From a virus (taxonomy: Duplodnaviria > Heunggongvirae > Uroviricota > Caudoviricetes): 64,000 bases of DNA. The number at the start of each line of letters is the position of its first letter. Positions within the stretch are counted from its first letter, which is position 1. Position numbers and translations under genes: made by a program. Where the stretch lies: positions 12,132-76,131 of IMG/VR virus record IMGVR_UViG_2778261223_000007. The stretch is one strand, 5' to 3'. This document shows positions 2-61,427 of this stretch, one piece after another. The notes beneath the pieces are model-generated. The model worked only from the letters and a program-made list of their open reading frames with translations, was not told the origin of the DNA and searched no databases.

Positions 2-1948
2 AAGGATACATTTTTATCCACTGACGAAAACACAAAACAAGTAAAAAAAGCTGTTGAAGACGGCACCAAAAAAACTGTCGATGCGATTCATTCTTTAGGT
101 GAGCAGCTACAAGGCGGGCGTGATGGTGAAGATGGTGTTGGTGAGCACGGGTATACTTCCCCGGCTGAATTTAATGCCCCTACCAGCAACACCATTGCAG
201 CGGATCTGAATATTGGTGGCAGCAACGCCAAAAACCGCAATTACCGGAATAATAATCTCGGCAACCTTGTTTTCGCTAATCAGGAAGGGGCGACGCTGGA
301 AGCACCAAATGCAAAAGGTGAACAACGTTTTGCGCGATTTAACACGCCTGAAGAAGGGATCAGGGCGCTGGCAAACCAGGTGTCAAGCTATTACAACGGC
401 ACCAGCGCCGCTGCTGGGTATCAGAAGCTACAGACGGTATCCAGTATTATTTCCAAATGGGCACCCCCAAAGGAGAACAATACTAATCAATATATTGATA
501 ACGTCAGCAAATATCTTGGCGTCTCGCCTAATGAAAAAATAGACGTCAGCAACCCAGAGGTTATGACGCAATTAGTTCGTGCAATAGCGACGAAAGAAGG
601 TGGAAACCCGGCGGTTAACAATGAGTTCATAAAGAATGCTCTTGGGGCATTTAACACAAATACTGGTCGATGGGAGGGACAATTCTCTGACGAAACATTG
701 GCGCGGATTAATAAAATTCAGAAAGAAAATGGTGGTCAGCTAATTGCCCGCGATTCGCAATATAGTGTTGGTCGCAAGATAAAATATGTTAATGGAAAAT
801 CTCCAGCTCAACCAGTTTTGAATGCCGTTCCGACAGCAACACAACAGCCAATTGAGGTTGCACAACATGCCCAGGCAGTCAAAAAGCCACAAAAAACAGG
901 CAATCAATCGCAACCGATTAATCCAGAGAACGTTGATGTTAATACTGGCTCTCCATCAAGTCTGCTTGAGAGATTAATCGCTATAAATGACAGCGGGGTA
1001 GGTAATTTATTTGGAGGTGCGGCTACCAGCCTTGCTGGTACAAGCCTTGGCCTGATTAAGGATTTTGCGTCGGCGACTTCGTTTGGTTCTATATCTTCGC
1101 TTTCCGAAAAAGCGAAAGGAATGGATCAGGCTCTTACTGAAAAGATATCCAGCTTAACCGGTAAATCTTTTGGATTTCAAAAAGCAAGCCAGGTAACTGA
1201 TATAAGAGACGCTTTACAAAAAAGACCAAAAGCTGAACGCGATATGCCTTCAGTGGATCTTCTTTCCGGTGTTTCTTCGGCAAGTGAGAGTGAAAAAATC
1301 CCTGTAAACTCAAGGGGGATTCCAGTTTATGACAATGGATACAAGGTAATTGATGGTGAAGATAAGGGGGTGCTTGGCTCTTTGTTTGACTCGTCATTAA
1401 CAGGTCTGAAACGTATTAGCTCTGCTGTGTTACCTGCAATTGGCGATAACGTTTCACGACTTATTGGTGGGGTAGATGGCACTGGCATTGTTAATGATTT
1501 GGTTTATCAGGCTACTGGGCAGAACTCAACAATTGCTAGGGCTATTAGCCCGCTTACCAGGAGCGCCGGTAGTTGGCTGAATAATGGTATTCAACAAACC
1601 GCAGATAGCATTAGAGGTATATCAAACGAAGCCAATAATGCCATATTTGGCTCTGCGTCAGCCGTGCAAGAACCTTTTCTTGCTATGCCACCACAGCTTC
1701 CTACTGTAACAGATCTCGCACGAAGCGGAATAAGACAACCATTAACTACTGACACTATAAATAACGATCCTGCTATGTTGAAGGCGCTGGATAACATCTG
1801 CTCTATCCTGAACGATCTTCTGAATGTGAACAAGAACAATACAAAAGGCGATCCGGATAAGGTTGTCAAAACATCGCAGCCGCAACCGCGACCACGTGCT
1901 AGCACAACTATTAATGACCCGTCGCTGGATGCTCTGCTTGAGGATTAA
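2..1948 (+). CDS. 5'-truncated large tail protein, C-terminal part of a Sit/tape-measure-like injection protein. The reading frame is open from base 2.
   Basis: Frame 2 is open from the window start and continuous with the listed 380..1948 ORF. The product is long and Gly/Ser/Thr-rich and lies immediately upstream of the baseplate and tail-fibre genes, as sit does in P1. Confidence 0.5.
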   Translation, partial: KDTFLSTDENTKQVKKAVEDGTKKTVDAIHSLGEQLQGGRDGEDGVGEHGYTSPAEFNAPTSNTIAADLNIGGSNAKNRNYRNNNLGNLVFANQEGATLEAPNAKGEQRFARFNTPEEGIRALANQVSSYYNGTSAAAGYQKLQTVSSIISKWAPPKENNTNQYIDNVSKYLGVSPNEKIDVSNPEVMTQLVRAIATKEGGNPAVNNEFIKNALGAFNTNTGRWEGQFSDETLARINKIQKENGGQLIARDSQYSVGRKIKYVNGKSPAQPVLNAVPTATQQPIEVAQHAQAVKKPQKTGNQSQPINPENVDVNTGSPSSLLERLIAINDSGVGNLFGGAATSLAGTSLGLIKDFASATSFGSISSLSEKAKGMDQALTEKISSLTGKSFGFQKASQVTDIRDALQKRPKAERDMPSVDLLSGVSSASESEKIPVNSRGIPVYDNGYKVIDGEDKGVLGSLFDSSLTGLKRISSAVLPAIGDNVSRLIGGVDGTGIVNDLVYQATGQNSTIARAISPLTRSAGSWLNNGIQQTADSIRGISNEANNAIFGSASAVQEPFLAMPPQLPTVTDLARSGIRQPLTTDTINNDPAMLKALDNICSILNDLLNVNKNNTKGDPDKVVKTSQPQPRPRASTTINDPSLDALLED

Positions 1949-1953
1949 TAAAG

Positions 1954-2328
1954 ATGCTTTATGAAATAGACGCAAGACTTCAAACGAATGAGAGCGGTGT
2001 CATTATTGCAGAAGGAAGTTCCGCAGCATGGATGGCCCGACTTGACGAGTGGCTACGAACCCCTGAAGGGAGTGTTTATGGTTTACCCTCTTGGGGGAAT
2101 CCAATGGAAGAATTTAAGCATGAACCATTCGGCTCTGAAACTTCGCACATAGTTGAAGTGGCTATTGAAGGGAGAATGATGAAAAAACTACGACAAGACT
2201 TGCCAGGTTTGGATGTGCAGGGGATTCGTTGCACATCAATTTCTGAAGATTCTTTATTAATTAGTTTTTATGCGAAAGGTGGGAGCATGGATATTGTTAT
2301 GCAGAAATCAAGTGGGGTGGGCGCGTGA
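1954..2328 (+). CDS. small baseplate assembly protein (gp25/W-like position)
   Basis: 124-aa ORF packed tightly between the tape-measure-like gene and the J-like baseplate gene. The call rests on synteny only. Confidence 0.4.
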   Translation: MLYEIDARLQTNESGVIIAEGSSAAWMARLDEWLRTPEGSVYGLPSWGNPMEEFKHEPFGSETSHIVEVAIEGRMMKKLRQDLPGLDVQGIRCTSISEDSLLISFYAKGGSMDIVMQKSSGVGA

Positions 2329-3755
2329 CGATTACAGAATTACTGGACAAATTTAACGCCAAGTTAAATGAAAACACATGGTGGTCACGATTTGTAAATA
2401 GTCAGTTTGTGCAGATGCACGCTATATTCGGATCACAGCTTATTTATATTGCCCGTACATTTGCAAGCCGCGGCCTCACTGAGGGACTTATTTCAACGGC
2501 TACGCGCCGCTCAAGTATTTTAGCGGTTGCTGAAGACCGTAGCTACGTAGGGCGATTTGTTAGTGCTTCATACGGAACAACGTCTATAACCAATAAAACT
2601 GATCGGGATATTACGTTACCAGCCGGGGCTGAATTGCTTGCCAATGACCAAACACCTTTGGCAATTATTAACAGTGTTGTAATTCCTGCTGGAGGAACTG
2701 TTTCTGGCGTAGAAACTAAACAGCATGAAGCTGTTAGCGTTACATTTGATATTGAGAAGGAAACTTTATTTCTGACATTGTTGCTTTCCAGAGAATTAAC
2801 AAAAGAAGTCTCTAGCCTGGATGTTTATGTTATTACAGATGGCGTAGAAGAAAAATGGACATATAACCCATTATTTAGAATGTCCAGAGACAAGAGTAAG
2901 CACTATTCATTGGCATATAAACCTACAGAACAACTTGGAGTCAAGTTTGGTGATGGTTCTATGGGTATGATGCCTCCAGCAGGCTGTCAGGTTCGAATCG
3001 ATGTTATGGCTAGCCTTGGCGACTATACTTTGGCTGAAGGACAAAAGTTAGAACCGGCTGGAAATATCGCTCAATATGTGGAGTCACTAGAGTTTAAAAC
3101 TGATTCGATCATTACCGGTGGTAGTGGTATGGAAACTACAGAAGAAACTCGAAATCGTGCTCAGTATTATGTTGCATACGATGAACAAGTGGTATGGGGC
3201 GGTGATTATCGCCAATTCATTCAGAATGTTGTTCATGGAACTTCATGGTTGAACGTTTGGGGCGAAGCGTTGCAAGAGAAAATAACTGGGTTTGACGTTC
3301 GAAACATCAACAAGATTTTCTTTTGCGGACATAAGCCAGGTGTAAGCCAGGCTCAGCTAAAATCAGAAATACTGAAAGCTCTAGAGAATGTTCCAAATGA
3401 GTTGAACAAGCGGTTTGAGTATGTAGATACAAATGAACAACCATTTACTATAATATTTACAGGTATTGCACGTAAAAATGTTCTGATAGACGACGCTCAA
3501 AATGCTATTAAAGCAGCGTTGGAAGAAAATTTTGGTCGTGATTCGTCATCATTCAGTTTATTACTACAGAGTGATGATGATTCTCAGCAATGTTATGCAC
3601 AGGTAAAAGTTAAAGATATTTGGCGAGTAATAGAGTCGCTGGATATGTTTCTCTCTTATGACATAACAATACAAAATATGAAAGATGCAGTTTACTTTAA
3701 TGACTTCATTTATCTTGACGTGAAATCTTCAACGTTCAGCATTTCTTACCCGTAA
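2325..3755 (+). CDS. baseplate J-like protein
   Basis: 476-aa ORF overlapping the upstream stop by 4 nt. Its size and position are typical of baseplate wedge J-family proteins. Confidence 0.45.
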   Translation: MTITELLDKFNAKLNENTWWSRFVNSQFVQMHAIFGSQLIYIARTFASRGLTEGLISTATRRSSILAVAEDRSYVGRFVSASYGTTSITNKTDRDITLPAGAELLANDQTPLAIINSVVIPAGGTVSGVETKQHEAVSVTFDIEKETLFLTLLLSRELTKEVSSLDVYVITDGVEEKWTYNPLFRMSRDKSKHYSLAYKPTEQLGVKFGDGSMGMMPPAGCQVRIDVMASLGDYTLAEGQKLEPAGNIAQYVESLEFKTDSIITGGSGMETTEETRNRAQYYVAYDEQVVWGGDYRQFIQNVVHGTSWLNVWGEALQEKITGFDVRNINKIFFCGHKPGVSQAQLKSEILKALENVPNELNKRFEYVDTNEQPFTIIFTGIARKNVLIDDAQNAIKAALEENFGRDSSSFSLLLQSDDDSQQCYAQVKVKDIWRVIESLDMFLSYDITIQNMKDAVYFNDFIYLDVKSSTFSISYP

Positions 3756-3765
3756 TGAGGTTAGC

Positions 3766-4611
3766 ATGAAAGATAATTGGCTTAAGGAACGATTAACTAA
3801 AGTAAAACAGGATTCACATCTCTGGAGTGCATTTATAGACGCTTTACAGGATGTCTGGAATGAGGCAGTAGAACCAATATTAACAAGAATAAGTAACAGA
3901 AAATCCTTCTTCACTATGGACAGTGAGGACATGGATGCCCGCATTGCTGAATACGGGCGTTTTTTCGTTATCACTGAAAAAGATAAGGCTCGTAGGCCAA
4001 TGCTGCTGGCACAACGTTTAGATGAAGTGCACTTTAAAGGCACTATCTTGCCAATTGAGCAGACATTCTGGCGTGAATTCGGTTGTATTCCTGTTAGTTG
4101 GGAACCGCTGTATGCACCTGTAAATATAGAAAAACACCCCTATGGTTCATATTTTGCGACCGAAATAGAAATACCTACGGCACAGGCTCAATTCGGTGAG
4201 TTCTTCCTGACATCAAGGGGGCTGGTCGTTGTTGATCAGAACAAGCTATATCGCTCATATGGAGAGCAGGATAAAGAAGCCGCTGTACAGAAATTGTTAT
4301 CTGACTTCGAAACAGTAATAGCCCCTTTATTGCCATTGCATATTGTTTTTGATGGCGTCTCGTTTCGGCTTAGTGCTGTATTCCCTGAAGTGGCAGAAAT
4401 ACTAAATTGCTTGTCTACGGATGTTTCGGTAATTGAAGGTGTTTATGTTACTGAGAGTATGGCTGATATGCTATCCCGTAGTGATACCTCCTGCCAGGTA
4501 GACAATATTTCTCTTAACGCCATACCGAACCGAACGGCAGAAAAGCAATTACATCTTGATGTAACCCCACTCGATGCGTGGCCTTTGGATTACCACCTTC
4601 AACCTGTTTAA
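3766..4611 (+). CDS. tail/baseplate protein
   Basis: 281-aa ORF lying in the tail operon. Confidence 0.4.
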   Translation: MKDNWLKERLTKVKQDSHLWSAFIDALQDVWNEAVEPILTRISNRKSFFTMDSEDMDARIAEYGRFFVITEKDKARRPMLLAQRLDEVHFKGTILPIEQTFWREFGCIPVSWEPLYAPVNIEKHPYGSYFATEIEIPTAQAQFGEFFLTSRGLVVVDQNKLYRSYGEQDKEAAVQKLLSDFETVIAPLLPLHIVFDGVSFRLSAVFPEVAEILNCLSTDVSVIEGVYVTESMADMLSRSDTSCQVDNISLNAIPNRTAEKQLHLDVTPLDAWPLDYHLQPV

Positions 4612-15250: not shown

Positions 15251-15306
15251 TCACATAAATCACACTCTTTTTACACTCACAGCTTTCTCTATAGTTGGAG
15301 TGTATT

Positions 15307-16671
15307 TTGAACAAATCAGTTACTTCTGCGCTTTCCGAGGCCGCAGATATTAACAGCGTCATTGCTCTGGTTTCTTCATTAGAGAGGAAAGAAACACGCC
15401 TGGGGCGAAGTAGCTACGTAGTCACCAGCAAAGGTGCAGAGGTAAAGACGGCTTTTAAGGTCGTTGATGCCAGCAGTCTGATCATTTCGAACAACCTTGA
15501 CGGTACGATTAACCCGGCCTTCCCGGAAGAACTCCAACCACGAGATCGTACCCGGCTATCCAGCAAACTCCAGGTTAACCGTATTGCCTCCGATTTACGC
15601 CCGGCACAATTAACGGATTCCGGTATGAGCAGCCACGGAGCGCCGATAGTTGGTCCGGACAACGTTGTTGAATCCGGCAACGGAAGGAGTATGGGTATCT
15701 GGCGTGCCTATGAGCAAGGACAGGCGGATGAGTATCGCCAGTACCTGATCGACCATGCGAAAGAGTTTGGTCTGAATCCTGACGAAATTTCGCAAATGTC
15801 TATGCCCGTACTGGTGCGAGAAAGACTCACAGATGTAGACCGCGCTCAATTTGCCCGCGATTCAAACATTAGCGATCTGCAAGAGATGGCAGCAAGTGAA
15901 AAAGCGTATGCGGATGCGCAATTTCTCACTGAGAGCGTCATGGCGCTATTTAATCCTTCAGATGATGGAAATCTGCTGGCGCGGTCCAATGATGCGTTTA
16001 TTCGTGCGTTTTTGCGCGAAATTGGCGATACAGCGACGGCAGGCTTGCTTACTGCCGATGGGCGTCCCACGAAACAGCTTATCGATCGCATCCAGAATGC
16101 AATTTTTGCCAAAGCGTACAAGGATGAAAGGCTTGTTCGGCTGGTGTCGGAAGAGCCAGATCCGGAAATGCGTAATATCCTGATCGCATTAAATACGGCA
16201 GCCAGCGATTTTGCGCAAATGCAGTCGCTGTCTGGCGATGTTCACCATGACACGGTAACCGGACTGGTAGACGGTATAGAGCAATTGAATGGTCTGGATA
16301 AACAGGCTATTGCAGCGCTACAGGAAGCAATTAACCTTGTTCGTGAAGCAAAAGATAACGGTCAGGCAGTAGAAGAGGTGATCGCACAGCGTGGATTGTT
16401 TGGAGATAGCACTCCGGAAGCAGAAGCGCTTGCTCTGTTTATTGTTGCCAACAACCGAAGCGCTAAGCGAATGGGGGCCGCTTTCAAGAAACTGGCGCAA
16501 AAAATTAACGATGAACTTATTCACCAACAACAAGCGTTAGGCGATATGTTCGGCGGCGGAGATGTCGATCTGCGTAGCATTTTATCTGCCGTTTCTGATG
16601 AAATTGAGACTGAGTTTGGCGAAGGTAAAGGGTTAATTTTTTCTATGTTTGAGCCAACCTCTGTTGGGTAA
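15307..16671 (+). CDS. DdrB-like protein (possibly only the N-terminal part of a larger ancestral gene)
   Basis: 454 aa from the TTG at 15307, which has a GGAG SD. The track starts at the TTG at 15295. An AT-rich island begins right after its stop. Confidence 0.4.
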   Translation: MNKSVTSALSEAADINSVIALVSSLERKETRLGRSSYVVTSKGAEVKTAFKVVDASSLIISNNLDGTINPAFPEELQPRDRTRLSSKLQVNRIASDLRPAQLTDSGMSSHGAPIVGPDNVVESGNGRSMGIWRAYEQGQADEYRQYLIDHAKEFGLNPDEISQMSMPVLVRERLTDVDRAQFARDSNISDLQEMAASEKAYADAQFLTESVMALFNPSDDGNLLARSNDAFIRAFLREIGDTATAGLLTADGRPTKQLIDRIQNAIFAKAYKDERLVRLVSEEPDPEMRNILIALNTAASDFAQMQSLSGDVHHDTVTGLVDGIEQLNGLDKQAIAALQEAINLVREAKDNGQAVEEVIAQRGLFGDSTPEAEALALFIVANNRSAKRMGAAFKKLAQKINDELIHQQQALGDMFGGGDVDLRSILSAVSDEIETEFGEGKGLIFSMFEPTSVG

Positions 16672-16796
16672 CATCAATGTAACTTAATGCTCTTTCTGTG
16701 CGTTCATCACATATCTGAAGATGGGCGCATAATTCATTTTTGTTCCTGTTTAATAATATGTAAACTAGCTGAAAATATAATGAATGAGGATAACCG

Positions 16797-17354
16797 ATGT
16801 CATCATTTACAGATTTGGTTTCAGCTCTTGCATGGCCATTGGTGTTTGTGTGGTTTGTTAATAAGTATGGGGTTGATATTAAGGAGTTAATAGTACGTCT
16901 GAGTAGATTCAAGATTGGAGTAGCTGAAGCTGAGTTTAATGCGGGACTAACCGCAGCAGAAGTATTAGCAACAGATGCATCAGTTGGGAATAGAAATATT
17001 AACAATGGTAATAATAACTCTGAATATATAAATAAAATCGCACAATTAGAGAGAATTGCTGATTTTTCACCTAGAGCTGCTATTATGGAGTCATGGTTGA
17101 TGGTAGAGGAGGCTGCCGGGCGCTCTGGTTTTATACAGGGAGGGTTAAAGCCGAAACGGAATCCAGAACTATTCATTGACTGGTTGATTCAAGAAGGAAA
17201 ACTTGAAGATTCCGCTGCTTTGCTGTTAAAACGGCTTCGCTCGCTAAGAAATGAAGCCGCGCACTTTCTGGATTTTGAAATCACCAGAAATGAAGCTGAA
17301 CGCTATATAAGACTTGCAGCGAAGGTTTCACAACTTATTGTTGATCCAGATTAG
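16797..17354 (+). CDS. membrane-anchored HEPN-like (Rx4H, DUF4145-like) protein
   Basis: 185 aa. It has an N-terminal TM helix (LVSALAWPLVFVWFV) and a C-terminal LRSLRNEAAHFLDFEITRNEAERYIRLAAKV with an R-x4-H motif. Local GC is low and there is a strong SD (gagga). Confidence 0.55.
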   Translation: MSSFTDLVSALAWPLVFVWFVNKYGVDIKELIVRLSRFKIGVAEAEFNAGLTAAEVLATDASVGNRNINNGNNNSEYINKIAQLERIADFSPRAAIMESWLMVEEAAGRSGFIQGGLKPKRNPELFIDWLIQEGKLEDSAALLLKRLRSLRNEAAHFLDFEITRNEAERYIRLAAKVSQLIVDPD

Positions 17355-17398
17355 TTTTACTTACTTAGCTTTGATAATTTATAACATGGAGTATAGTT

Positions 17399-17731
17399 AT
17401 GAGAAATATAATCCTGGTTTGTGCTTTATTAGCTTCTGCATCAGTTTGTGCTGCGCCCTATAAGATAAAAATCCCTTCTGATCCAAAAGCTACTTATACA
17501 GTGCTGGATATTGGTCGTGAAGGTGAATATAAAACTATCATTACAAAAAGGGAAGGCCCATCTGGGACAGCATATTCGAAGAGAATATATAATTGCATGA
17601 CAAATGAAGTGAAGTATCTTGGTTCTGGGGAGACGCTTGAACAGATGAAAAATTCAAAACCTGATCCCAAAATGGGGGGGATTGTAAGTGGTTCCATCGC
17701 TGACTATGTGGGCAGGGAAGCGTGTAAGTAA
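17399..17731 (+). CDS. small secreted/periplasmic protein
   Basis: 110 aa with a cleavable signal peptide (MRNIILVCALLASASVCAAP) and two Cys. It shares the AT-rich island with the previous gene. Confidence 0.6.
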   Translation: MRNIILVCALLASASVCAAPYKIKIPSDPKATYTVLDIGREGEYKTIITKREGPSGTAYSKRIYNCMTNEVKYLGSGETLEQMKNSKPDPKMGGIVSGSIADYVGREACK

Positions 17732-17815
17732 TCATTAACAGCACCAATAAAACTCTCCTATCAAATCACATACTGATTATGCTGCCGCAAAACTGGAAAC
17801 AATTTGCGGTGATTC

Positions 17816-19498
17816 ATGGCAACGAAAGACAAAAACAAAGGCTTTCTGTCAGCATTGAAGAAAGCCTTCAACGGTGGTGATGTTACGCCCGCCGATCCGG
17901 TCGTTTTTACGAGCGGGCATAGTGTCGTTGCTCGTTCCGGCCTGTCTGCTTTACGTCCAGGTATACTGGGGAGCAACAGCGATGGCATGACGAGTGCAGC
18001 AGATTCAATTTCTTTATCCGCTGAACTGCCCGGCGAGCGCCTGCAAAAGTACAACATCCTGGAAACGATGGCTAAAAGCCCGACTATCTCGACGGCTTTA
18101 AACATTCACATTGCACATGCGCTTGCGCCTTCAAAAAAAACCGGACAAGCATTCATCCTTTCGCCAAAGGATGGTTCCGATGCTGAGGCAGTAAGTAGAT
18201 GTGAAGAGTTAACCGCTGATTTGGGGGCGATGATTAATGACGGACTTCCTTCATGGGCCATGATTATGGCTATCTTTGGGGTGTCTTATGTCCGACCTTA
18301 TGCTGAACAGGGCAGGGGGATAACAGGCATTGAGTCCAGTTATTACACTCTGCCACACTTCGTCCAGGAGTTTTATCGTGGTAGCCAGCTGGTAGGTTTC
18401 AGTGGTGATTACATTCTGGATACGCATAGTTTGCGCAGAGTAATAACCGAACCGTGGAATCTGGTTTCCATGAAAAATCCCTATTGGACGCCACAGCATA
18501 AAGTTATTCCGGTTAGCTACGGCACAAAAGGGTACTCACTGTTAAGTGATCAGGCTGATAAGCCGTTAATGGAGACGCAGAATTACGGAACTTCATTCCT
18601 GGAATACAGCTATGAACCTTACCTTAATTTATGTGCTTCGCTCGCCGCGCTGAAATCAACGCGAAATAATGCAGCCAAAATTGACCGCCTGATTGCTCTT
18701 ACGACGAACACACTGGACCCGGTTAATGCGGCGAACTATACGCGTGGCGTCAGCCAGGCATTGAAGCGTCATAGTGACCTGGTGGCGCAAAGGTCGATTA
18801 ATGCCAACGCTATTCCGACTGTGCTTAACCATCTGATACCTGTTATGGGAGACGGGAAGAACGGCATCACCATTGATACGCAATCCATACCCGCAGATAT
18901 CAGTGGTATCGAAGACGTTATGTTTCACCTCCGGCAGCTTGCTGCAAGCCTCGGCATTGACGCAACAATGCTTGGCTGGGCTGATCAGATGAGCGGAGGG
19001 CTTGGAGAAGGCGGCTGGCAGCAAACTGCTATCCAGGCTGCATTGCGTGCGAACTGGATCAGACAGGCCGCCCAGCGAACTATTTATCGGCTTCTGGACA
19101 TTCACCTCGCTTATAAATACGGCAAGGTTTACACCGAAACAAACCGCCCTTATGACGTGCAATTCAACTCAATGAACACTGCTATCCAGGAAGAGGAAAA
19201 CCGAGAACTGGATGCACGCGCCAACTTTGTTGCTGTCATCTCCCAAATTATGGACCAGATCCAGAACAACCCGAAACTGGCTGGTAGCGACGCGTTTATG
19301 CGTTATCTGTTCACTGAGCAGTTGCACATCGACGATGACACTCTCAACACCATGATCAAAGAGTTTAAGGCGAATGAATCAGAGCAAAACAACGAGCATG
19401 GTATGTACGAATCCGCGCCGTTGTCGTCCGGTGACGATCCGGAAAACTGGACGCCAGAACAGTTAATAAACTTTGCAAAATTTGTGATGAGCAATTAA
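17816..19498 (+). CDS. portal protein (Prt-like)
   Basis: 560-aa acidic protein. Its position relative to the protease-like gene matches the P1 prt-pro arrangement. Confidence 0.5.
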   Translation: MATKDKNKGFLSALKKAFNGGDVTPADPVVFTSGHSVVARSGLSALRPGILGSNSDGMTSAADSISLSAELPGERLQKYNILETMAKSPTISTALNIHIAHALAPSKKTGQAFILSPKDGSDAEAVSRCEELTADLGAMINDGLPSWAMIMAIFGVSYVRPYAEQGRGITGIESSYYTLPHFVQEFYRGSQLVGFSGDYILDTHSLRRVITEPWNLVSMKNPYWTPQHKVIPVSYGTKGYSLLSDQADKPLMETQNYGTSFLEYSYEPYLNLCASLAALKSTRNNAAKIDRLIALTTNTLDPVNAANYTRGVSQALKRHSDLVAQRSINANAIPTVLNHLIPVMGDGKNGITIDTQSIPADISGIEDVMFHLRQLAASLGIDATMLGWADQMSGGLGEGGWQQTAIQAALRANWIRQAAQRTIYRLLDIHLAYKYGKVYTETNRPYDVQFNSMNTAIQEEENRELDARANFVAVISQIMDQIQNNPKLAGSDAFMRYLFTEQLHIDDDTLNTMIKEFKANESEQNNEHGMYESAPLSSGDDPENWTPEQLINFAKFVMSN

Positions 19499-19511: not shown

Positions 19512-20510
19512 ATGCAATCACTGAATACTGTTACGGATCGCTTCTCCCTGGTAGAGAAAATCCGCAAACACACACCGCAGAACAACCGAAATTACGTCAT
19601 TCAGTCGGTACGAGACACATTCAACTCGCCAGAAACAAAAGAGCGTATCGCGCTGGGTGAGATGTATGGTTATTACGGTCATGGTCGCCGGGCGATGCAC
19701 TATAACAAAACGAAAAGCCTGAACTTGCCGGAAGTCTCTGTTGTGATGGTAGATGGGAAGCCTGTTGTATTGGAGAACGTGCCGTCAAACAGGACTATCG
19801 ACATTTCGATTGACGACAACGGCATTGTTACGCATACGCAGGAAATACTGGATACAGACACCGGGCGTATTGTTCAGGGCATGATTAATTCTGGTGCTGG
19901 TGGTTGGTCGTGGGCTACATCTGGTCCAGATTCATCGGTATCCCTGGTAAAGTCTTTCCACGGCTTTGATTACGTAACTGTGCCTAACTATATCAGCCTC
20001 GACAAGAAAAGCCTGATGCTTGAATCAGCAGAAGAGCGCGATGCGGCTATTCATGCAGCACTTATCGAACAAGGTTTTACCGATAACGCTGCTACGGATC
20101 TGGTTCACCACTTTTCAGCAATGAAAAATCAGCAAGCCATGCTCGAATCTGCACATCGTGAAGCCCTGGAATCAGAATTGATGCTCCTTGAAGTGGAAAA
20201 CATACAGCTTCGAGATAAGCTGCGCGCTCAAACAGCGATGATGGAAAGCCAGGGGGAAAATGCAAAGCAATGCCGCCGGATTTTGCGTGACGCTATCCAG
20301 GAAATGCCTGTTTTTATCAGCGCAGAACAGCGCCGGGCGCTTTGCCGTATGCAGTCTGAAGATGATGCCCGCATAGTGGCTGCGATGCTTGAATCTCTTG
20401 GGGCAAATGCTACTTATGGCTTACCGGTATCAGGCAAGAAAGAACCAGAGTTATCACCGAAGGAGAACAAAAACACCACCCCGTTACTCTTCGTTTCTAG
20501 AAGGGGGTGA
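19512..20510 (+). CDS. head processing protease / scaffold (Pro-like)
   Basis: 332 aa, immediately after the portal-like gene. Confidence 0.4.
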   Translation: MQSLNTVTDRFSLVEKIRKHTPQNNRNYVIQSVRDTFNSPETKERIALGEMYGYYGHGRRAMHYNKTKSLNLPEVSVVMVDGKPVVLENVPSNRTIDISIDDNGIVTHTQEILDTDTGRIVQGMINSGAGGWSWATSGPDSSVSLVKSFHGFDYVTVPNYISLDKKSLMLESAEERDAAIHAALIEQGFTDNAATDLVHHFSAMKNQQAMLESAHREALESELMLLEVENIQLRDKLRAQTAMMESQGENAKQCRRILRDAIQEMPVFISAEQRRALCRMQSEDDARIVAAMLESLGANATYGLPVSGKKEPELSPKENKNTTPLLFVSRRG

Positions 20511-20522
20511 TTGCCTTGTTAA

Positions 20523-20540
20523 GTTAAATTTCTAACATAG
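20523..20540 (-). promoter_or_regulatory. C1-type operator-like motif
   Basis: The reverse complement is CTATGTTAGAAATTTAAC, matching the recurrent RTGTTAGAAAAYTAAWTT motif. Confidence 0.4.
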
Positions 20541-20623
20541 TGTATTTATATACACTGTTGATCCTGGTGGATGGGATCGAGTAGGATCGCGGTCACTGCT
20601 CCGGTAGCGACTGCCAAAAAAGC

Positions 20624-20650
20624 AAAAGCCGCTGAGAAGCGGCTTTTTGG
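20624..20650 (+). terminator. rho-independent terminator
   Basis: AGCCGC-TGAGAA-GCGGCT stem-loop followed by TTTTT. Confidence 0.7.
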
Positions 20651-20710
20651 GTGTATAAATCCACTGCCATAGATTTATACGGTAGATAGATTTTTTCACG
20701 GAACTATCTG

Positions 20711-21673
20711 GTGAGTATTTTAAATTCAGTTTCAGTAACTTTCAACACTTCTGAGTATAAAAACAACACTGAATACCACAAAAAAATCAAAGGTCATCAG
20801 TTGAGTTTTTTTGCTCGTCATAGCGGTCTTCTTTCCCCTTCACATAGCGCCATTATTGCCGAGTTCGCCAACCTGGCAGGGTCTACCGATGAATACATGA
20901 TCCGTCGCTCATATGCTGATATGTCCGAGATTACAGGACGCAGTATTTCTACTGTGCGCCGGGCATTTGCTGAAGCGACGAAGTGCGGAATGCTTGTTAA
21001 GCAACATCAGGTAGCGAATAACAATGCCCAGGTGTGTAACGTATATCGGTTTACGACACAATTTCTCCACTTCATTCATGTAGCAATGGAGATAGGGGGT
21101 AAGCAGGGCATCAAATTTGCCAACGCCACAAAACTGGTTAAGCAGTTGATTTCAAAGGTTCGTTATTTTTTTGAAACTGGGAACCCCCTGTTCAAATTGA
21201 ACAAGTCCCCCCATGTTCAAAATGAACAGCCAATAGAAAATAAGAGTCACTCTATAGCCAAAAGAAGAGAAAGATCATACGCGGTTCAGCCAAAGGCTTC
21301 ACCAGCAGATAGTTCTCAAACGGATAACGGTGTACTGGATAAAAAACCAGTAATCAGGGAAGAACATACCAACCACTGCCTGGCGGCGGCAAAAGCGAGA
21401 GCTGCAAAGCGTCGTTCAGACGAGGGGCACGCAAAACGGCAGGCTCTGTATCGTACCGCTGAAAAGCTGGCAAAAAAATTTGCATGGATACGTAGTGCCG
21501 CTACCGCAGTGAATAAGCCTAAACAATCCAATGCCCTGGATTTCTCAATGGATTATTCTGGCTCCCAGGGGTGTGCAACCATTGGTGAAGCCTTTGACCT
21601 GATGAAACAGCGTGGCTATCGGTCTGAATTTGACCGGGAGGATTGGTCAATCCCTGCGGGATTTAGGGGATGA
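20711..21673 (+). CDS. HTH DNA-binding protein, possibly a replication initiator or regulator
   Basis: 320 aa with a GTG start. It has an HTH (MSEITGRSISTVRRAFAEATKCGMLV) and a basic K/R-rich tail. Confidence 0.45.
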   Translation: MSILNSVSVTFNTSEYKNNTEYHKKIKGHQLSFFARHSGLLSPSHSAIIAEFANLAGSTDEYMIRRSYADMSEITGRSISTVRRAFAEATKCGMLVKQHQVANNNAQVCNVYRFTTQFLHFIHVAMEIGGKQGIKFANATKLVKQLISKVRYFFETGNPLFKLNKSPHVQNEQPIENKSHSIAKRRERSYAVQPKASPADSSQTDNGVLDKKPVIREEHTNHCLAAAKARAAKRRSDEGHAKRQALYRTAEKLAKKFAWIRSAATAVNKPKQSNALDFSMDYSGSQGCATIGEAFDLMKQRGYRSEFDREDWSIPAGFRG

Positions 21674-59429: not shown

Positions 59430-59451
59430 GCCCCGGCCTGTCCGGGGCTTT
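59430..59451 (+). terminator. terminator hairpin (same sequence family as 23224..23248)
   Basis: GCCCCGG-CCTGT-CCGGGGC followed by TTTAACT. Confidence 0.5.
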
Positions 59452-59480
59452 AACTACTAAATAACCGGATTCTCCGCACG

Positions 59481-59765
59481 ATGAAGAAAATAGATTTCAC
59501 TTACTCTGCTGCCACAATCCAGCGACGTTTCAGTCTCATAAGGGAAGTGGAACTATCAAAAAACTGCTATCAAATTCTACTGGATGAAGAGTTTTCACTG
59601 ATGGTTATAGCAGAAAAATTGGCTATGCCGAATGACCGGCACAAGGTCATAGCCAGCCTGGATCTGGTGACAAACAGATACTGGGAATACGAGGAACTAC
59701 TTGAAGTTGGCTTGATACGCGAGATGATAGAACAGGCTGTTCCCCTCCACTTACAGCAACCATAA
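59481..59765 (+). CDS. hypothetical protein
   Basis: 94 aa. Confidence 0.4.
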   Translation: MKKIDFTYSAATIQRRFSLIREVELSKNCYQILLDEEFSLMVIAEKLAMPNDRHKVIASLDLVTNRYWEYEELLEVGLIREMIEQAVPLHLQQP

Positions 59766-59901
59766 TTGAAAGATCTTAACGATAGTCTGCCACGAATAGT
59801 TACTTCCACTGCCTAAAGTTATTTAATTGCATTACAAAGTGTAAATTAGTAACATTAGAATCTCACACAGCACTATAACTATATGTTTTTTATGTAAAAG
59901 G

Positions 59902-60261
59902 ATGATAATCGTGGCTACTAAAATTAAACTTGAAAACCCTCAAACTGGCGAATCAATCACCGGTTTTTATGGTTTTTCCTGGACTACATTCTTGTTTGGT
60001 GCTTTTCCAGCTTTGTTCAGGAAAGACTTTATAACTTTTATTGGGGTATTTGTAGTGATGCTGATACTGGCATTCCTCACAGCCGGAATTGGCCCGTGGA
60101 TTGCCTCATTTATCTGGGCGTTCATGTATAATAAATATTTCACCGTAAATAAGATAAAACAAGGCTTCATTTTTGCTGGTTCTCACACAGAAAATGAGTT
60201 GGCTGCTAGCAAGCTAGGATTGTCATTAAATCAAAACAACTGCAAAACTATTACCGAGTAA
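59902..60261 (+). CDS. small inner-membrane protein (two TM segments)
   Basis: 119 aa (a GTG at 59911 with an AAAGGA SD is an alternative start). FSWTTFLFGAFPALF...IGVFVVMLILAFLTAGIGPWIASFIWAF. It lies in an AT-rich island. Confidence 0.55.
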   Translation: MIIVATKIKLENPQTGESITGFYGFSWTTFLFGAFPALFRKDFITFIGVFVVMLILAFLTAGIGPWIASFIWAFMYNKYFTVNKIKQGFIFAGSHTENELAASKLGLSLNQNNCKTITE

Positions 60262-60300
60262 AGCCAAAAAGCAGGCTTAATAGTAAGCCTGCTATGTCAA

Positions 60301-61134
60301 TCACGAATCTCTCTGACAATTCAGAAACATAAACGCCCGCTTGTCTGTTAAATCCGTAACATAATACTCTCTCATGCCTGTAGGTTTTATTCTACGAGCA
60401 TATACAAACTTATGAACTGGTTGTTTTTCCCCATAACTTACATCAGTCCTAAATTCATCAACCACGCTACCATCTTTTTCAGTTTCCTTTCTCACTAGCT
60501 GATTTTCTAATACAGGCTTTGATTCGTCCATGCCACTAAAAGCATCCTGACCTGTGCTGTTGCCTCGGTTTCCGCGTGGCAAATCCCATGAAAAATAAGT
60601 GCCATAGTCAGTAATCACACGATCCCATGTTCCGGAATCCCCCATATAGTTAGAACGCTCCCCCTTGTAAGTTACAGCCACCTTACAGGCATACGTTTCA
60701 CCATTATTTTTTTTATCATGTCCAGCCATGCTTGCAGGAGTTGCAGGGGAATTATGAATAGATGCGCTTACATCATCTTGCGTTAATTTCTCAACTGGAG
60801 CAAATTCATATATGGGTGTGCCGAGGCTATTTAAATATAACTTATATCTAACCCTAAGCGCACTTCCATCTGAGAATTCATACGTTCCCAGGCATTGGAG
60901 CTTATTGTTTTCTCTTATCTCATTGATCTGATTATAAGCATCAATTACAGAGATTGCTTCCTGCTCGTCCTTCAGCAGTTCATTATAATCATCGATTAAC
61001 ATCTGCCTAGTTTTAGGGGAATTGCAGTCAATTTTGCTAAAATCATAAGCAAAGGTGAGTGTGGGAACAAAAAGAGCAACAACAGTAGCTAGTATTGTTG
61101 AGGAAAATCTTTTTCCATTTTTTATAAAAAACAT
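60301..61134 (-). CDS. secreted/periplasmic protein of unknown function
   Basis: 277 aa from the internal Met (GGAG SD). Signal peptide MFFIKNGKRFSSTILATVVALFVPTLTFA. The island is AT-rich. Confidence 0.55.
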   Translation of the reverse strand: MFFIKNGKRFSSTILATVVALFVPTLTFAYDFSKIDCNSPKTRQMLIDDYNELLKDEQEAISVIDAYNQINEIRENNKLQCLGTYEFSDGSALRVRYKLYLNSLGTPIYEFAPVEKLTQDDVSASIHNSPATPASMAGHDKKNNGETYACKVAVTYKGERSNYMGDSGTWDRVITDYGTYFSWDLPRGNRGNSTGQDAFSGMDESKPVLENQLVRKETEKDGSVVDEFRTDVSYGEKQPVHKFVYARRIKPTGMREYYVTDLTDKRAFMFLNCQRDS

Positions 61135-61427
61135 TTCATTAACTCCATACCTTACCATCTTAGCCGCGAGCGCGGTCCCTAAAACCATTAACTTCACTGC
61201 ACCGTCCTTCATGCAATCAAAATGACTTTTATGTTATAAAAATAATCAGCCAAATCAACATGATTTAGGCCAAATTTCTGTCAAAAAATAAAATCCACAA
61301 AAAGTGGTTGACACTATTTTGGAAATCACAAACTGCACATAATCCATCGCGCTAACGGCTCCCGTTGAAGGTTCTTTTGACGATTAACTTTCAGCCGAAG
61401 CGCGGTAGGGAGTCATAACGCCAAAGC

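What the first reader, a model, noticed from the sequence alone, without database searches (positions are those of the whole stretch)
16672..17760. AT-rich two-gene island (TM + HEPN-like Rx4H protein, plus a secreted protein) wedged between the ddrB-like gene and the portal gene
Between the end of the dar operon and prt there is a ~1.1 kb block of much lower GC than its flanks, carrying two tightly spaced genes with strong SDs. The first gene (16797..17354) has an N-terminal TM helix and a C-terminal LRSLRNEAAHF...ITRNEAERYIRLAAKV segment with a textbook R-x4-H HEPN/DUF4145-like motif. The second (17399..17731) is a 110-aa signal-peptide protein. Membrane-tethered HEPN proteins are recurrent in abortive-infection and superinfection-exclusion systems. 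The ddrB-like ORF ends abruptly at the island border, so the insertion may have replaced part of ddrB. I do not recognise this pair as any named system.
Basis: partly seen in the sequence, partly recalled or inferred. Interest (0 to 1): 0.68.

Follow-up and report, generated by a model that had tools for sequence, protein, structure and literature searches.

The report
Two-gene accessory insert in phage D6
A 1.1 kb AT-rich insert found in a minority of D6-type phage-plasmids carries two unrelated cargo genes, a membrane-anchored HEPN (predicted RNA-cutting) protein of a large untested family and a small periplasmic protein common in prophages; both are plausible anti-phage genes, but they are not a paired system.

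Summary
The window is Escherichia phage D6 (99.9% identity). The finding is D6 orf24 (16797-17354) plus orf23 (17399-17731), in a 38.5% GC block between the ddrB-like gene and prt.

About 100 D6-like plasmids match at 90% identity or more. Fourteen carry the block. At least 43 listed records have ddrB followed by 64 bp and then prt, and three have an IS200/IS605 at that spot. It is therefore an accessory insert.

orf24 belongs to the "single TM helix with WP signature + DUF4145 HEPN" architecture described computationally in 2013. W13-P14 and R151-N-x3-H156 are conserved, and the best fold match is a HEPN domain. The family is large (657 cluster representatives at E<=1e-30) and stands alone. 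Members sit in a P2 gpA-gpQ antiviral hotspot, in PICI-like satellites and next to AbiTii.

orf23 is a secreted, disulfide-stapled beta-sheet protein with a Protein E/PseM-like fold. In 46 of 80 viral loci its relatives lie just upstream of the tape-measure gene, the HK97 gp15 moron position.

The two genes never co-occur outside D6-like elements (0 of 82 and 0 of 80 loci). The short DdrB is a lineage trait, not damage from the insert. Likely role: prophage-encoded exclusion or abortive infection (inferred). RefSeq already labels orf24 DUF4145. New member of a known kind.

The parts
16654..17764 (.). AT-rich accessory segment (38.5% GC). It replaces about 55 bp of the insert-free allele; the net length difference is 1059 bp.
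   Evidence: Flank alignment to the insert-free plasmids CP149812 and CP058619; 4201 versus 3142 bp spans; GC statistics.
16706..16713 (+). Left copy of the 8-bp direct repeat ATCACATA. It lies in register with the single copy of the insert-free allele.
   Evidence: family D17, spacing 1059, equal to the indel size.
17765..17772 (+). Right copy of the 8-bp direct repeat ATCACATA, at the right boundary where identity to the insert-free allele resumes.
16706..16733 (+). Weak sigma-70-like site (ATCACA-16-CATAAT, 9 of 12 matches), 64 nt upstream of orf24. A candidate only.
   Evidence: the number of such sites in the region does not exceed the shuffle expectation.
16797..17354 (+). orf24 (D6 YP_009914701), 185 aa: WP-signature single-TM helix + stalk helix + DUF4145-type HEPN domain.
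16803..16859 (+). Predicted TM helix (residues 3-21), including the conserved A12-W13-P14 (nt 16830-16838).
   Evidence: Hydropathy; WP is nearly invariant in 32 homologues; architecture in PMC3710099 section 15.
17016..17342 (+). HEPN helical bundle (residues 74-182), with the conserved S91-P-R-A-A95, E98, W100 and E104.
17247..17264 (+). R151-N-E-A-A-H156, the Rx4H putative catalytic motif.
   Evidence: R151 and N152 invariant, H156 in at least 90% of 32 homologues.
17399..17731 (+). orf23 (D6 YP_009914700), 110 aa: secreted beta-sheet protein with a C-terminal helix. Signal peptide about residues 1-18; conserved C66 (17594-17596) and C109 (17723-17725).
15295..16671 (+). Left flank: ddrB-like gene (ddrB-ParB domain), equivalent to residues 1-446 of P1 DdrB. 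Not part of the insert except for its last few codons.
17816..19498 (+). Right flank: portal gene prt. Not part of the insert.

Best explanation
The block is a moron-type accessory cassette. It was acquired by one sublineage of D6-like P1-family phage-plasmids in the short ddrB-prt spacer, and it carries two functionally independent cargo genes.

Gene 1 (orf24) is a small inner-membrane protein. Its N-terminus is a WP-containing TM helix, followed by a long stalk helix and a cytoplasmic DUF4145-type HEPN domain with an intact R-N-x3-H site. I infer that it is a single-gene, latent RNase. In this model it is switched on by an envelope or membrane event caused by an incoming phage or other mobile element, probably through stalk-mediated HEPN dimerisation. 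It would then cut cellular and invader RNA and abort the infection, protecting the resident plasmid-prophage population.

Gene 2 (orf23) is exported to the periplasm. It belongs to a family that is a recurrent prophage moron. I infer that it acts at the envelope, most likely by interfering with genome delivery of superinfecting phages, or otherwise by modifying the cell wall or envelope of the lysogen.

Shown here: the presence/absence polymorphism, the domain and motif assignments, the fold similarities, the genomic contexts and the lack of co-occurrence. Inferred: RNase activity, the trigger, the topology and any exclusion phenotype.

The confidence of 0.5 is for the whole statement. That the block is an accessory cassette of two independent genes is about 0.9. 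That orf24 is a HEPN-dependent anti-invader effector is about 0.5. That orf23 acts in exclusion is about 0.3.
For: Accessory insert:
- 14 plasmids plus D6 carry it.
- At least 43 listed D6-like plasmids at 96.5-99.1% identity have ddrB, 64 bp, then prt, in a 3142-bp span against 4201 bp here. Three more have an IS200/IS605 at the same spacer.
- GC is 38.5% against 49% in the flanks.
- It is present in 9 of 5426 complete E. coli genomes, always on plasmids.

orf24:
- Pfam DUF4145 E=8e-4 and HEPN_RiboL-PSP E=0.011. Homologues at about 58% identity carry precomputed PF13643 hits.
- A12-W13-P14 and R151, N152, A154 and H156 are conserved, matching the WP-TM/DUF4145 group of PMC3710099.
- The family has 657 representatives at E<=1e-30, almost all 175-210 aa, with no conserved neighbour in 82 loci.
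- Relatives sit in the P2-like gpA-gpQ hotspot (L100; hotspot defined in PMC9122126). Others sit beside AbiTii (L101), or in PICI-like satellites between the primase and a ClpP-capsid gene.
- Other single-gene DUF4145 HEPN proteins are proven immune effectors: RAZR (PMC13017515), BxaP (PMC10799925) and Ishtar (bioRxiv 2026.07.06.735840).

orf23:
- Signal peptide and conserved Cys pair; confident model, pLDDT 91.5.
- In 46 of 80 viral loci the gene lies a median of 62 bp upstream of the tape-measure gene. In 17 it follows a gp5-like spike gene, and in 9 it follows a CI-type repressor.
- The first of these is the HK97 gp15 moron site (PMC3594210).
Against: - No experiment exists for either family, and PADLOC has no model that matches either protein.
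- The Pfam score of orf24 is below the gathering threshold (19.9 against 23.1 bits).
- The TM call is borderline on hydropathy (1.63).
- No convincing own promoter and no terminator were found. The genes may simply be transcribed with the late dar/lysis operon, which would fit a lytic-cycle role as well as a lysogen-expressed one.
- Many orf24 relatives lie in ordinary chromosomal settings with no defence neighbours.
- The fold matches of orf23 (a muramidase effector and an adhesin) do not point specifically to phage exclusion.
Confidence: 0.5

Rival explanations
1. The two genes form one system, such as sensor plus effector or toxin plus antitoxin/immunity. In this reading the periplasmic protein regulates or is regulated by the membrane HEPN.
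For: They are 44 bp apart on the same strand and always occur together in D6-like plasmids.
Against: None of 82 orf24-homologue loci has an orf23 relative within 6 kb. Among the 80 viral loci plus one Pseudomonas prophage locus (L006) that hold an orf23 homologue, only the D6-like contig itself has an orf24 relative. orf24 relatives have no conserved neighbour. orf24 exposes only about 2-5 residues to the periplasm (sequence). The taxonomic ranges differ: the orf23 family is abundant in Pseudomonas and Xanthomonas prophages.
Confidence: 0.05
2. The genes serve D6's own lytic cycle, as part of the late lydA-lydB-hdf-darA-ddrA-ddrB...prt operon. Examples would be host RNA shut-off by the HEPN RNase, lysis timing at the membrane, or peptidoglycan remodelling by the PseM-like periplasmic protein.
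Against: Most D6-like relatives lack the insert, so it is dispensable. orf24 relatives occur mostly outside phages, and within satellites or hotspots that hold defence genes. Similarity of orf23 to PseM is at fold level only (8% identity), and no catalytic residues could be compared.
Confidence: 0.15
3. The cargo is lysogenic conversion unrelated to phage defence. orf23 would be an envelope or adhesion/fitness factor with a Protein E-like fold. orf24 would be a stress-responsive membrane RNase regulating host RNA stability, as Anantharaman et al. suggested for this architecture.
Against: Protein E is an outer-membrane lipoprotein, whereas orf23 has no conserved lipobox Cys and no Pfam hit. The patchy, mobile-element-linked distribution and the hotspot locations are typical of conflict genes.
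Confidence: 0.2
4. orf24 is a catalytically inert HEPN-fold protein with a structural or regulatory role, like MtlR, and the motif is coincidental.
Against: R151, N152 and A154 are invariant and H156 is present in at least 90% of 32 homologues that are only 25-59% identical to orf24. That pattern is expected for an active site.
Confidence: 0.08

Closest known systems
WP-signature single-TM + DUF4145 HEPN proteins (Anantharaman, Makarova, Burroughs, Koonin & Aravind 2013, PMC3710099, 'Bacterial membrane-associated HEPN domains')
   Same: N-terminal single TM helix with conserved WP, a C-terminal DUF4145-type HEPN with Rx4H, a predicted cytoplasmic HEPN, and stand-alone genes.
   Different: None detected; orf24 appears to be a member. 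The family was only described computationally and no function has been tested. The published exemplar (V. cholerae gi 153825856) could not be retrieved for direct comparison.
RAZR / PD-T7-4 (zinc finger + DUF4145 HEPN RNase; PMC13017515)
   Same: A single-gene protein whose effector is a DUF4145-type HEPN with essential R and H. It acts by abortive infection through RNA cleavage.
   Different: orf24 has no zinc finger (no Cys at all) and has a TM helix plus stalk instead. No PADLOC model, including PD-T7-4, matches it. The RAZR trigger (portal and other ring assemblies) cannot be assumed. The adjacency of orf24 to prt is not conserved in the family.
BxaP and Ishtar1 (other monogenic DUF4145-HEPN immune proteins; PMC10799925, bioRxiv 10.64898/2026.07.06.735840)
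   Same: DUF4145 HEPN fused to a different accessory domain, monogenic, with a patchy distribution.
   Different: Domain order and partner domains differ (HEAT-like or beta-rich C-terminal domains, against an N-terminal TM anchor here). The targets are T4 and RP4 respectively; the target here is unknown.
HK97 gp15 moron (PMC3594210) and other prophage envelope-level exclusion proteins
   Same: [quoted passage not shown] They are small envelope-targeted proteins with deviant GC and presence/absence polymorphism.
   Different: There is no sequence relationship. gp15 is an inner-membrane YebO-like protein, whereas orf23 is a soluble periplasmic beta-sheet protein. An exclusion function for orf23 is untested.
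Haemophilus influenzae Protein E (3zh5) and P. aeruginosa PseM/TdeM muramidase effector (9m3l; PMC12494544)
   Same: An antiparallel beta-sheet with a helix tied to the sheet by a disulfide, and secretion by a signal peptide.

Membership tests
WP-TM + DUF4145 HEPN architecture (PMC3710099) | Single N-terminal TM helix | tested here: met
   There is one hydrophobic segment, residues 3-21, with KD(19)=1.63 (borderline), followed by a net-positive stretch. AF2 predicts a continuous helix over residues 2-60.
WP-TM + DUF4145 HEPN architecture (PMC3710099) | Strictly conserved WP signature in the TM helix | tested here: met
   A12, W13 and P14 are present in at least 90% of 32 homologues that are 25-59% identical to orf24.
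WP-TM + DUF4145 HEPN architecture (PMC3710099) | C-terminal domain matching Pfam DUF4145 (PF13643) | tested here: inconclusive
   orf24 itself scores E=8e-4 and 19.9 bits, below the gathering score of 23.1. Most homologues at 50-59% identity carry precomputed PF13643 hits, and RefSeq names it DUF4145.
HEPN superfamily | Alpha-helical bundle of the HEPN fold | tested here: met
HEPN superfamily | Rx4-6H motif with a polar residue after R | tested here: met
   R151-N152-E-A-A-H156. R and N are invariant and H is present in at least 90% of homologues.
HEPN superfamily | Metal-independent RNase activity | not testable with these tools
   This needs biochemistry.
RAZR / PD-T7-4 | N-terminal Cys4 zinc-finger domain and a match to the PD-T7-4 model | tested here: not met
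   orf24 contains no cysteine, and PADLOC gave no hit at E<=1.
Moron (Juhala/Hendrix sense; PMC3594210) | Extra DNA relative to otherwise collinear relatives | tested here: met
   Spans of 4201 against 3142 bp in relatives at 96.5-99.1% identity.
Moron (Juhala/Hendrix sense; PMC3594210) | Base composition different from the surrounding genes | tested here: met
   38.5% against 49% GC.
Moron (Juhala/Hendrix sense; PMC3594210) | Own promoter and terminator allowing expression from the repressed prophage | tested here: inconclusive
   Only a weak 9/12 sigma-70-like site at 16706-16733, and no terminator-like site. Transcript data are needed.
Two-gene defence or toxin-antitoxin system | Conserved co-occurrence of the two gene families | tested here: not met
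   0 of 82 and 0 of 80 independent loci.
Adhesin Protein E family | Sequence match to the family, and lipoprotein signal (lipobox Cys) | tested here: not met

The most novel reading that the evidence does not exclude
The WP-TM/DUF4145 proteins (hundreds to thousands of clusters, none tested) are a widespread class of monogenic immune sensors. In this reading they read out membrane perturbation by incoming phage or conjugative DNA through the WP helix, and answer with HEPN RNase activity. D6-type phage-plasmids would carry one, together with an unrelated periplasmic entry blocker (orf23), as a stacked two-layer exclusion cassette.
Probability: 0.3. Interest if true: 0.6.

Novelty: new member of a known kind. 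Interest (0 to 1): 0.36.

Why it matters
If orf24 is active, it would give a first function to a very large stand-alone family of membrane-anchored HEPN proteins that has been known only from a 2013 computational survey. It would also add a membrane-sensing variant to the emerging group of single-gene DUF4145 immune RNases (RAZR, BxaP, Ishtar).

D6-like phage-plasmids offer a ready-made natural experiment. Near-identical elements with and without the 1.06 kb insert exist in E. coli and Salmonella.

orf23 marks a second uncharacterised family that occupies the classic moron slot before the tape-measure gene in many prophages.

As a genome-annotation finding it is otherwise ordinary: an accessory cassette in a known phage, already labelled DUF4145.

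Tried and rejected
- P1 comparison of the ddrB-prt junction was not applicable. P1 has darB next to prt and hxr next to ddrB.
- The idea that the insert truncated ddrB was rejected.
- A P1-type late promoter motif (AAGTKAYTW-N4-TANNNT, derived from LPpro, LPdar and LPlyz) gave 2 matches in the window, equal to chance, and none near the insert.
- The test of whether ATCACATA is a repeated regulatory box found only chance-level matches.
- PADLOC gave no hit for either protein. PHROGs gave only unknown-function families. NCBIfam gave only a negligible hit.
- Pfam on 22 orf23 relatives gave nothing. A PDB sequence search with the orf23 profile returned only a short repeated motif in a flagellin-hook protein, judged spurious.
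- A PDB sequence search with the orf24 profile gave only weak HEPN hits: HepS at E=0.17 and Csm6 at E=3.2.
- The 'diverged' insert copies in MK356557 and MK356558 (89-95% identity) were rejected as evolutionary evidence. Those records have fragmented CDS even in portal and ddrB, which suggests assembly errors.
- The afdb50 fold library was unavailable.
- A literature search for 'TdeM' was uninformative. The related PseM paper was found instead.
- The hairpin before prt is not significant, z = -1.75.

Full report
**Identity of the window and check of the observation**

The 2.4 kb around the finding is 99.9% identical to Escherichia phage D6, a P1-family phage-plasmid. The two ORFs are D6 orf24 (YP_009914701, annotated 'DUF4145 domain-containing protein') and orf23 (YP_009914700, hypothetical). 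They lie between orf25 ('similar to P1 ddrB') and orf22 (portal, prt).

Both ORFs are present exactly as described, at 16797-17354 (185 aa) and 17399-17731 (110 aa). Each has an SD-like sequence, GAGGA and GGAG.

The segment 16654-17764 is 38.5% GC. Both flanking genes are 49% GC and the window mean is 47.3% (sd 3.3%). Only 0.6% of 1.1 kb windows are as low.

**It is an accessory insert, but it did not truncate ddrB**

A 4.2 kb query spanning ddrB to prt matched about 100 plasmids at 90% identity or more.
- Fourteen contain the full 4201 bp.
- At least 43 of the listed records (96.5-99.1% identical) cover only the flanks, within a span of 3141-3142 bp.
- Three have an IS200/IS605 element (tnpA/tnpB) in the same spacer.

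In the insert-free plasmids the order is ddrB (461 aa), 64 bp, then prt. Base-by-base comparison places the left break just after TATGTTTGA (window 16653, inside the last codons of ddrB). The right break is at AAATCACATAC (17763).

An 8-bp direct repeat, ATCACATA, sits at 16706-16713 and 17765-17772. Its spacing of 1059 bp equals the length difference between the two alleles, and the left copy is in register with the single copy of the insert-free allele. This suggests insertion or deletion at a short repeat. However, the 52 bp to the left of the first copy are unrelated between alleles, which a simple event does not explain.

The insert occurs in 9 of 5426 complete E. coli genomes, always on plasmids, and in Salmonella D6-like plasmids.

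D6 DdrB aligns to residues 2-446 of P1 DdrB (995 aa) at 64% identity and ends there. The insert-free relatives have the same short DdrB, so this is a lineage feature and not damage from the insert. In P1 itself prt lies next to darB, and ddrB next to hxr.

**Gene 1 (orf24)**

*Domain assignment.* Pfam gives DUF4145 at E=8e-4 (19.9 bits, below the gathering score of 23.1) and HEPN_RiboL-PSP at E=0.011. PADLOC gives nothing.

A database search found 103 homologues. Most are 180-200 aa, full length, from Enterobacterales down to distant phyla, and many carry precomputed PF13643 hits.

*Conserved residues.* In an alignment of 32 homologues that are 25-59% identical to orf24, the invariant or nearly invariant positions are:
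- A12-W13-P14 in the N-terminal hydrophobic helix;
- S91-P-R-A-A95, E98, W100 and E104;
- R151-N152-x-A154-x-H156;
- F160 and Y170.

This matches a group described by Anantharaman et al. [quoted passage not shown] That paper predicts cytoplasmic HEPN domains of inner-membrane proteins and proposes that they couple surface stimuli to RNA degradation (PMC3710099).

Hydropathy gives a single, borderline TM segment (residues 3-21, 1.63). Positive charges follow it, so the HEPN domain should face the cytoplasm (inference).

*Family size.* An exhaustive profile search finds 657 cluster representatives at E<=1e-30 and 4153 at E<=1e-10. Nearly all are 175-210 aa and match end to end. This is a large, stand-alone family.

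**Context of orf24 relatives**

In 82 loci, mostly one per species, no neighbouring gene family is shared by more than 6 loci, and those are integrases. The gene is a solo module.

It is often on mobile elements.
- In Salmonella it lies beside an integrase fragment in an ICE-like island.
- In Klebsiella and Raoultella it lies in PICI-like satellites, between a D5_N/Pox_D5 primase and a ClpP-capsid fusion gene.
- In viral contig L100 it lies between the P2-type replication gene A and the portal/terminase genes. This is the P2 gpA-gpQ hotspot shown to hold antiviral systems (PMC9122126). Next to it there is a weak HepT-like HEPN gene.
- In L101 it lies next to an AbiTii gene (PADLOC E=1.4e-37).
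- In L106 it lies inside a myovirus tail module.
- Some relatives are in plain chromosomal neighbourhoods, such as Serratia between nrdDG and phn.

Other single-gene DUF4145 HEPN proteins are experimentally proven immune effectors. RAZR/PD-T7-4 is a zinc finger plus DUF4145 protein that cleaves RNA and causes abortive infection (PMC13017515). BxaP and Ishtar1 are further examples (PMC10799925; bioRxiv 10.64898/2026.07.06.735840).

orf24 is not a RAZR family member. It has no cysteines and no PADLOC match.

**Gene 2 (orf23)**

The search returned 108 homologues of about 110 aa in Enterobacterales, Pseudomonas, Xanthomonas and others, none with a Pfam domain. They share a signal peptide, two invariant cysteines (C66, C109) and motifs such as PxD, TKRxG and KYLG.

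The AF2 model is confident (pLDDT 91.5). It shows a four- to five-stranded antiparallel sheet plus a C-terminal helix placed so that C66 and C109 can bond.

In 80 viral contigs the gene occupies typical moron positions.
- In 46 it is the last gene before the tape-measure gene (median gap 62 bp), after a variable cargo region.
- In 17 it follows a gp5-like baseplate spike gene.
- In 9 it follows a CI-type repressor.

The slot between the tail chaperone and the tape-measure gene is where the first named moron lies. That moron, HK97 gene 15, encodes a superinfection-exclusion protein (PMC3594210).

**Are the two genes a system?**

No orf23 relative lies within 6 kb of any of 82 orf24-homologue loci. 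I also searched the 80 viral loci plus one Pseudomonas prophage locus (L006) that hold an orf23 homologue. Only the D6-like contig itself holds an orf24 relative. The pairing is therefore specific to this cassette. The simplest reading is two independent cargo genes that travelled together.

**Expression**

I found only a weak sigma-70-like site upstream of orf24 and no terminator-like structure. There is no P1-type late promoter near prt. The cassette may be read through from the late lydA-ddrB operon, may have an unrecognised promoter, or both. This remains open and keeps a lytic-cycle role as a rival.

**Most likely mechanism (inferred)**

orf24 would sit in the inner membrane as a latent HEPN RNase. 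A membrane or envelope event during invasion would change the TM/stalk arrangement and bring two HEPN domains together to form the composite R/H site. RNA cleavage would then stop growth of the infected cell.

orf23 would act in the periplasm, most plausibly against genome delivery by incoming phages, or on the wall or envelope of the lysogen.

Only the architecture, motif conservation, fold, polymorphism and contexts are shown here. Activity, trigger and phenotype are not.

**Novelty and verdict**

However, the architecture of orf24 was already described in 2013 and RefSeq already labels the gene. The 'pair' is not a system, and ddrB was not truncated by the insert.

I rate it a new member of a known kind, of moderate-to-low interest (0.36). 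Its main value is as a convenient natural plus/minus system for testing a large, uncharacterised membrane-HEPN family and a common prophage moron family.

Noticed in passing
L015 (CP057742.1) 1933-3622; same site as window ~16680-17760: In three D6-like E. coli plasmids the ddrB-prt spacer holds an IS200/IS605 element (tnpB and tnpA) instead of the orf24/orf23 insert. This short spacer therefore tolerates different insertions.
   Followed up: partly
window 16654-16705 versus L014 1855-1906: The 52 bp between the left break and the first ATCACATA copy have the same length as in the insert-free allele but are only about 33% identical. Simple insertion or deletion at the 8-bp repeat does not explain this.
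   Followed up: partly
window 15295-16671; L013 1143-4130 (P1 ddrB): The whole D6 lineage, with or without the insert, encodes only the N-terminal ParB-like 446-461 aa of DdrB. The C-terminal ~550 aa of P1 DdrB (annotated as a possible metallopeptidase) and the nested iddB are missing.
   Followed up: partly
L017 6699-7226, L018 807-1334, L098 6699-7226, L099 6702-7226, L192 5704-6231: A 174-175 aa ORF with no Pfam or PADLOC match follows the orf24 homologue in several Enterobacterales loci (Pantoea, S. arizonae, Serratia, two prophage contigs). It is absent in D6 and in many others. It could be an optional partner.
   Followed up: partly
L100 3070-3912 (-): In the P2-like gpA-gpQ hotspot the orf24 homologue sits beside a 280-aa protein with a weak HepT-like (HEPN RNase) match. 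That would be two HEPN-type genes in one hotspot.
   Followed up: no
viral loci L109-L187: In 13 viral loci a second orf23-family protein was found on the same strand within 3 kb upstream of the orf23 homologue. This could be a tandem paralogue; the distance and adjacency were not examined.
   Followed up: no
window 17784-17810: The inverted repeat GCCGCAAA...TTTGCGGT just upstream of the prt start is conserved in insert-free alleles. It folds at -13.1 kcal/mol, but z is only -1.75 against shuffles.
   Followed up: yes
window ~2650-3900 and ~59450-61300: Two other stretches are as AT-rich as the insert. The first is the bplA baseplate gene (structural). The second spans simB, orf80, pmgF and an ant/icd module.
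   Followed up: partly
L001 12088-13019 and L197 1723-2879 (D6 record 19986-20917 and 74022-75178): D6 is annotated with two separate icd-like plus anti-repressor (ant) modules.
   Followed up: no
L198 (MK356557.1), L199 (MK356558.1): These two Salmonella plasmid records show 89-95% identity to the region but have only tiny fragmented CDS, even across portal and ddrB. They look like error-rich assemblies rather than diverged relatives.
   Followed up: partly
L002-L005 6660-8066 (-): In Salmonella the orf24 homologue is followed by a convergent 468-470 aa protein with no Pfam or PADLOC match. It lies beside an integrase fragment and next to a P22-type gtrABC/tailspike region.
   Followed up: no
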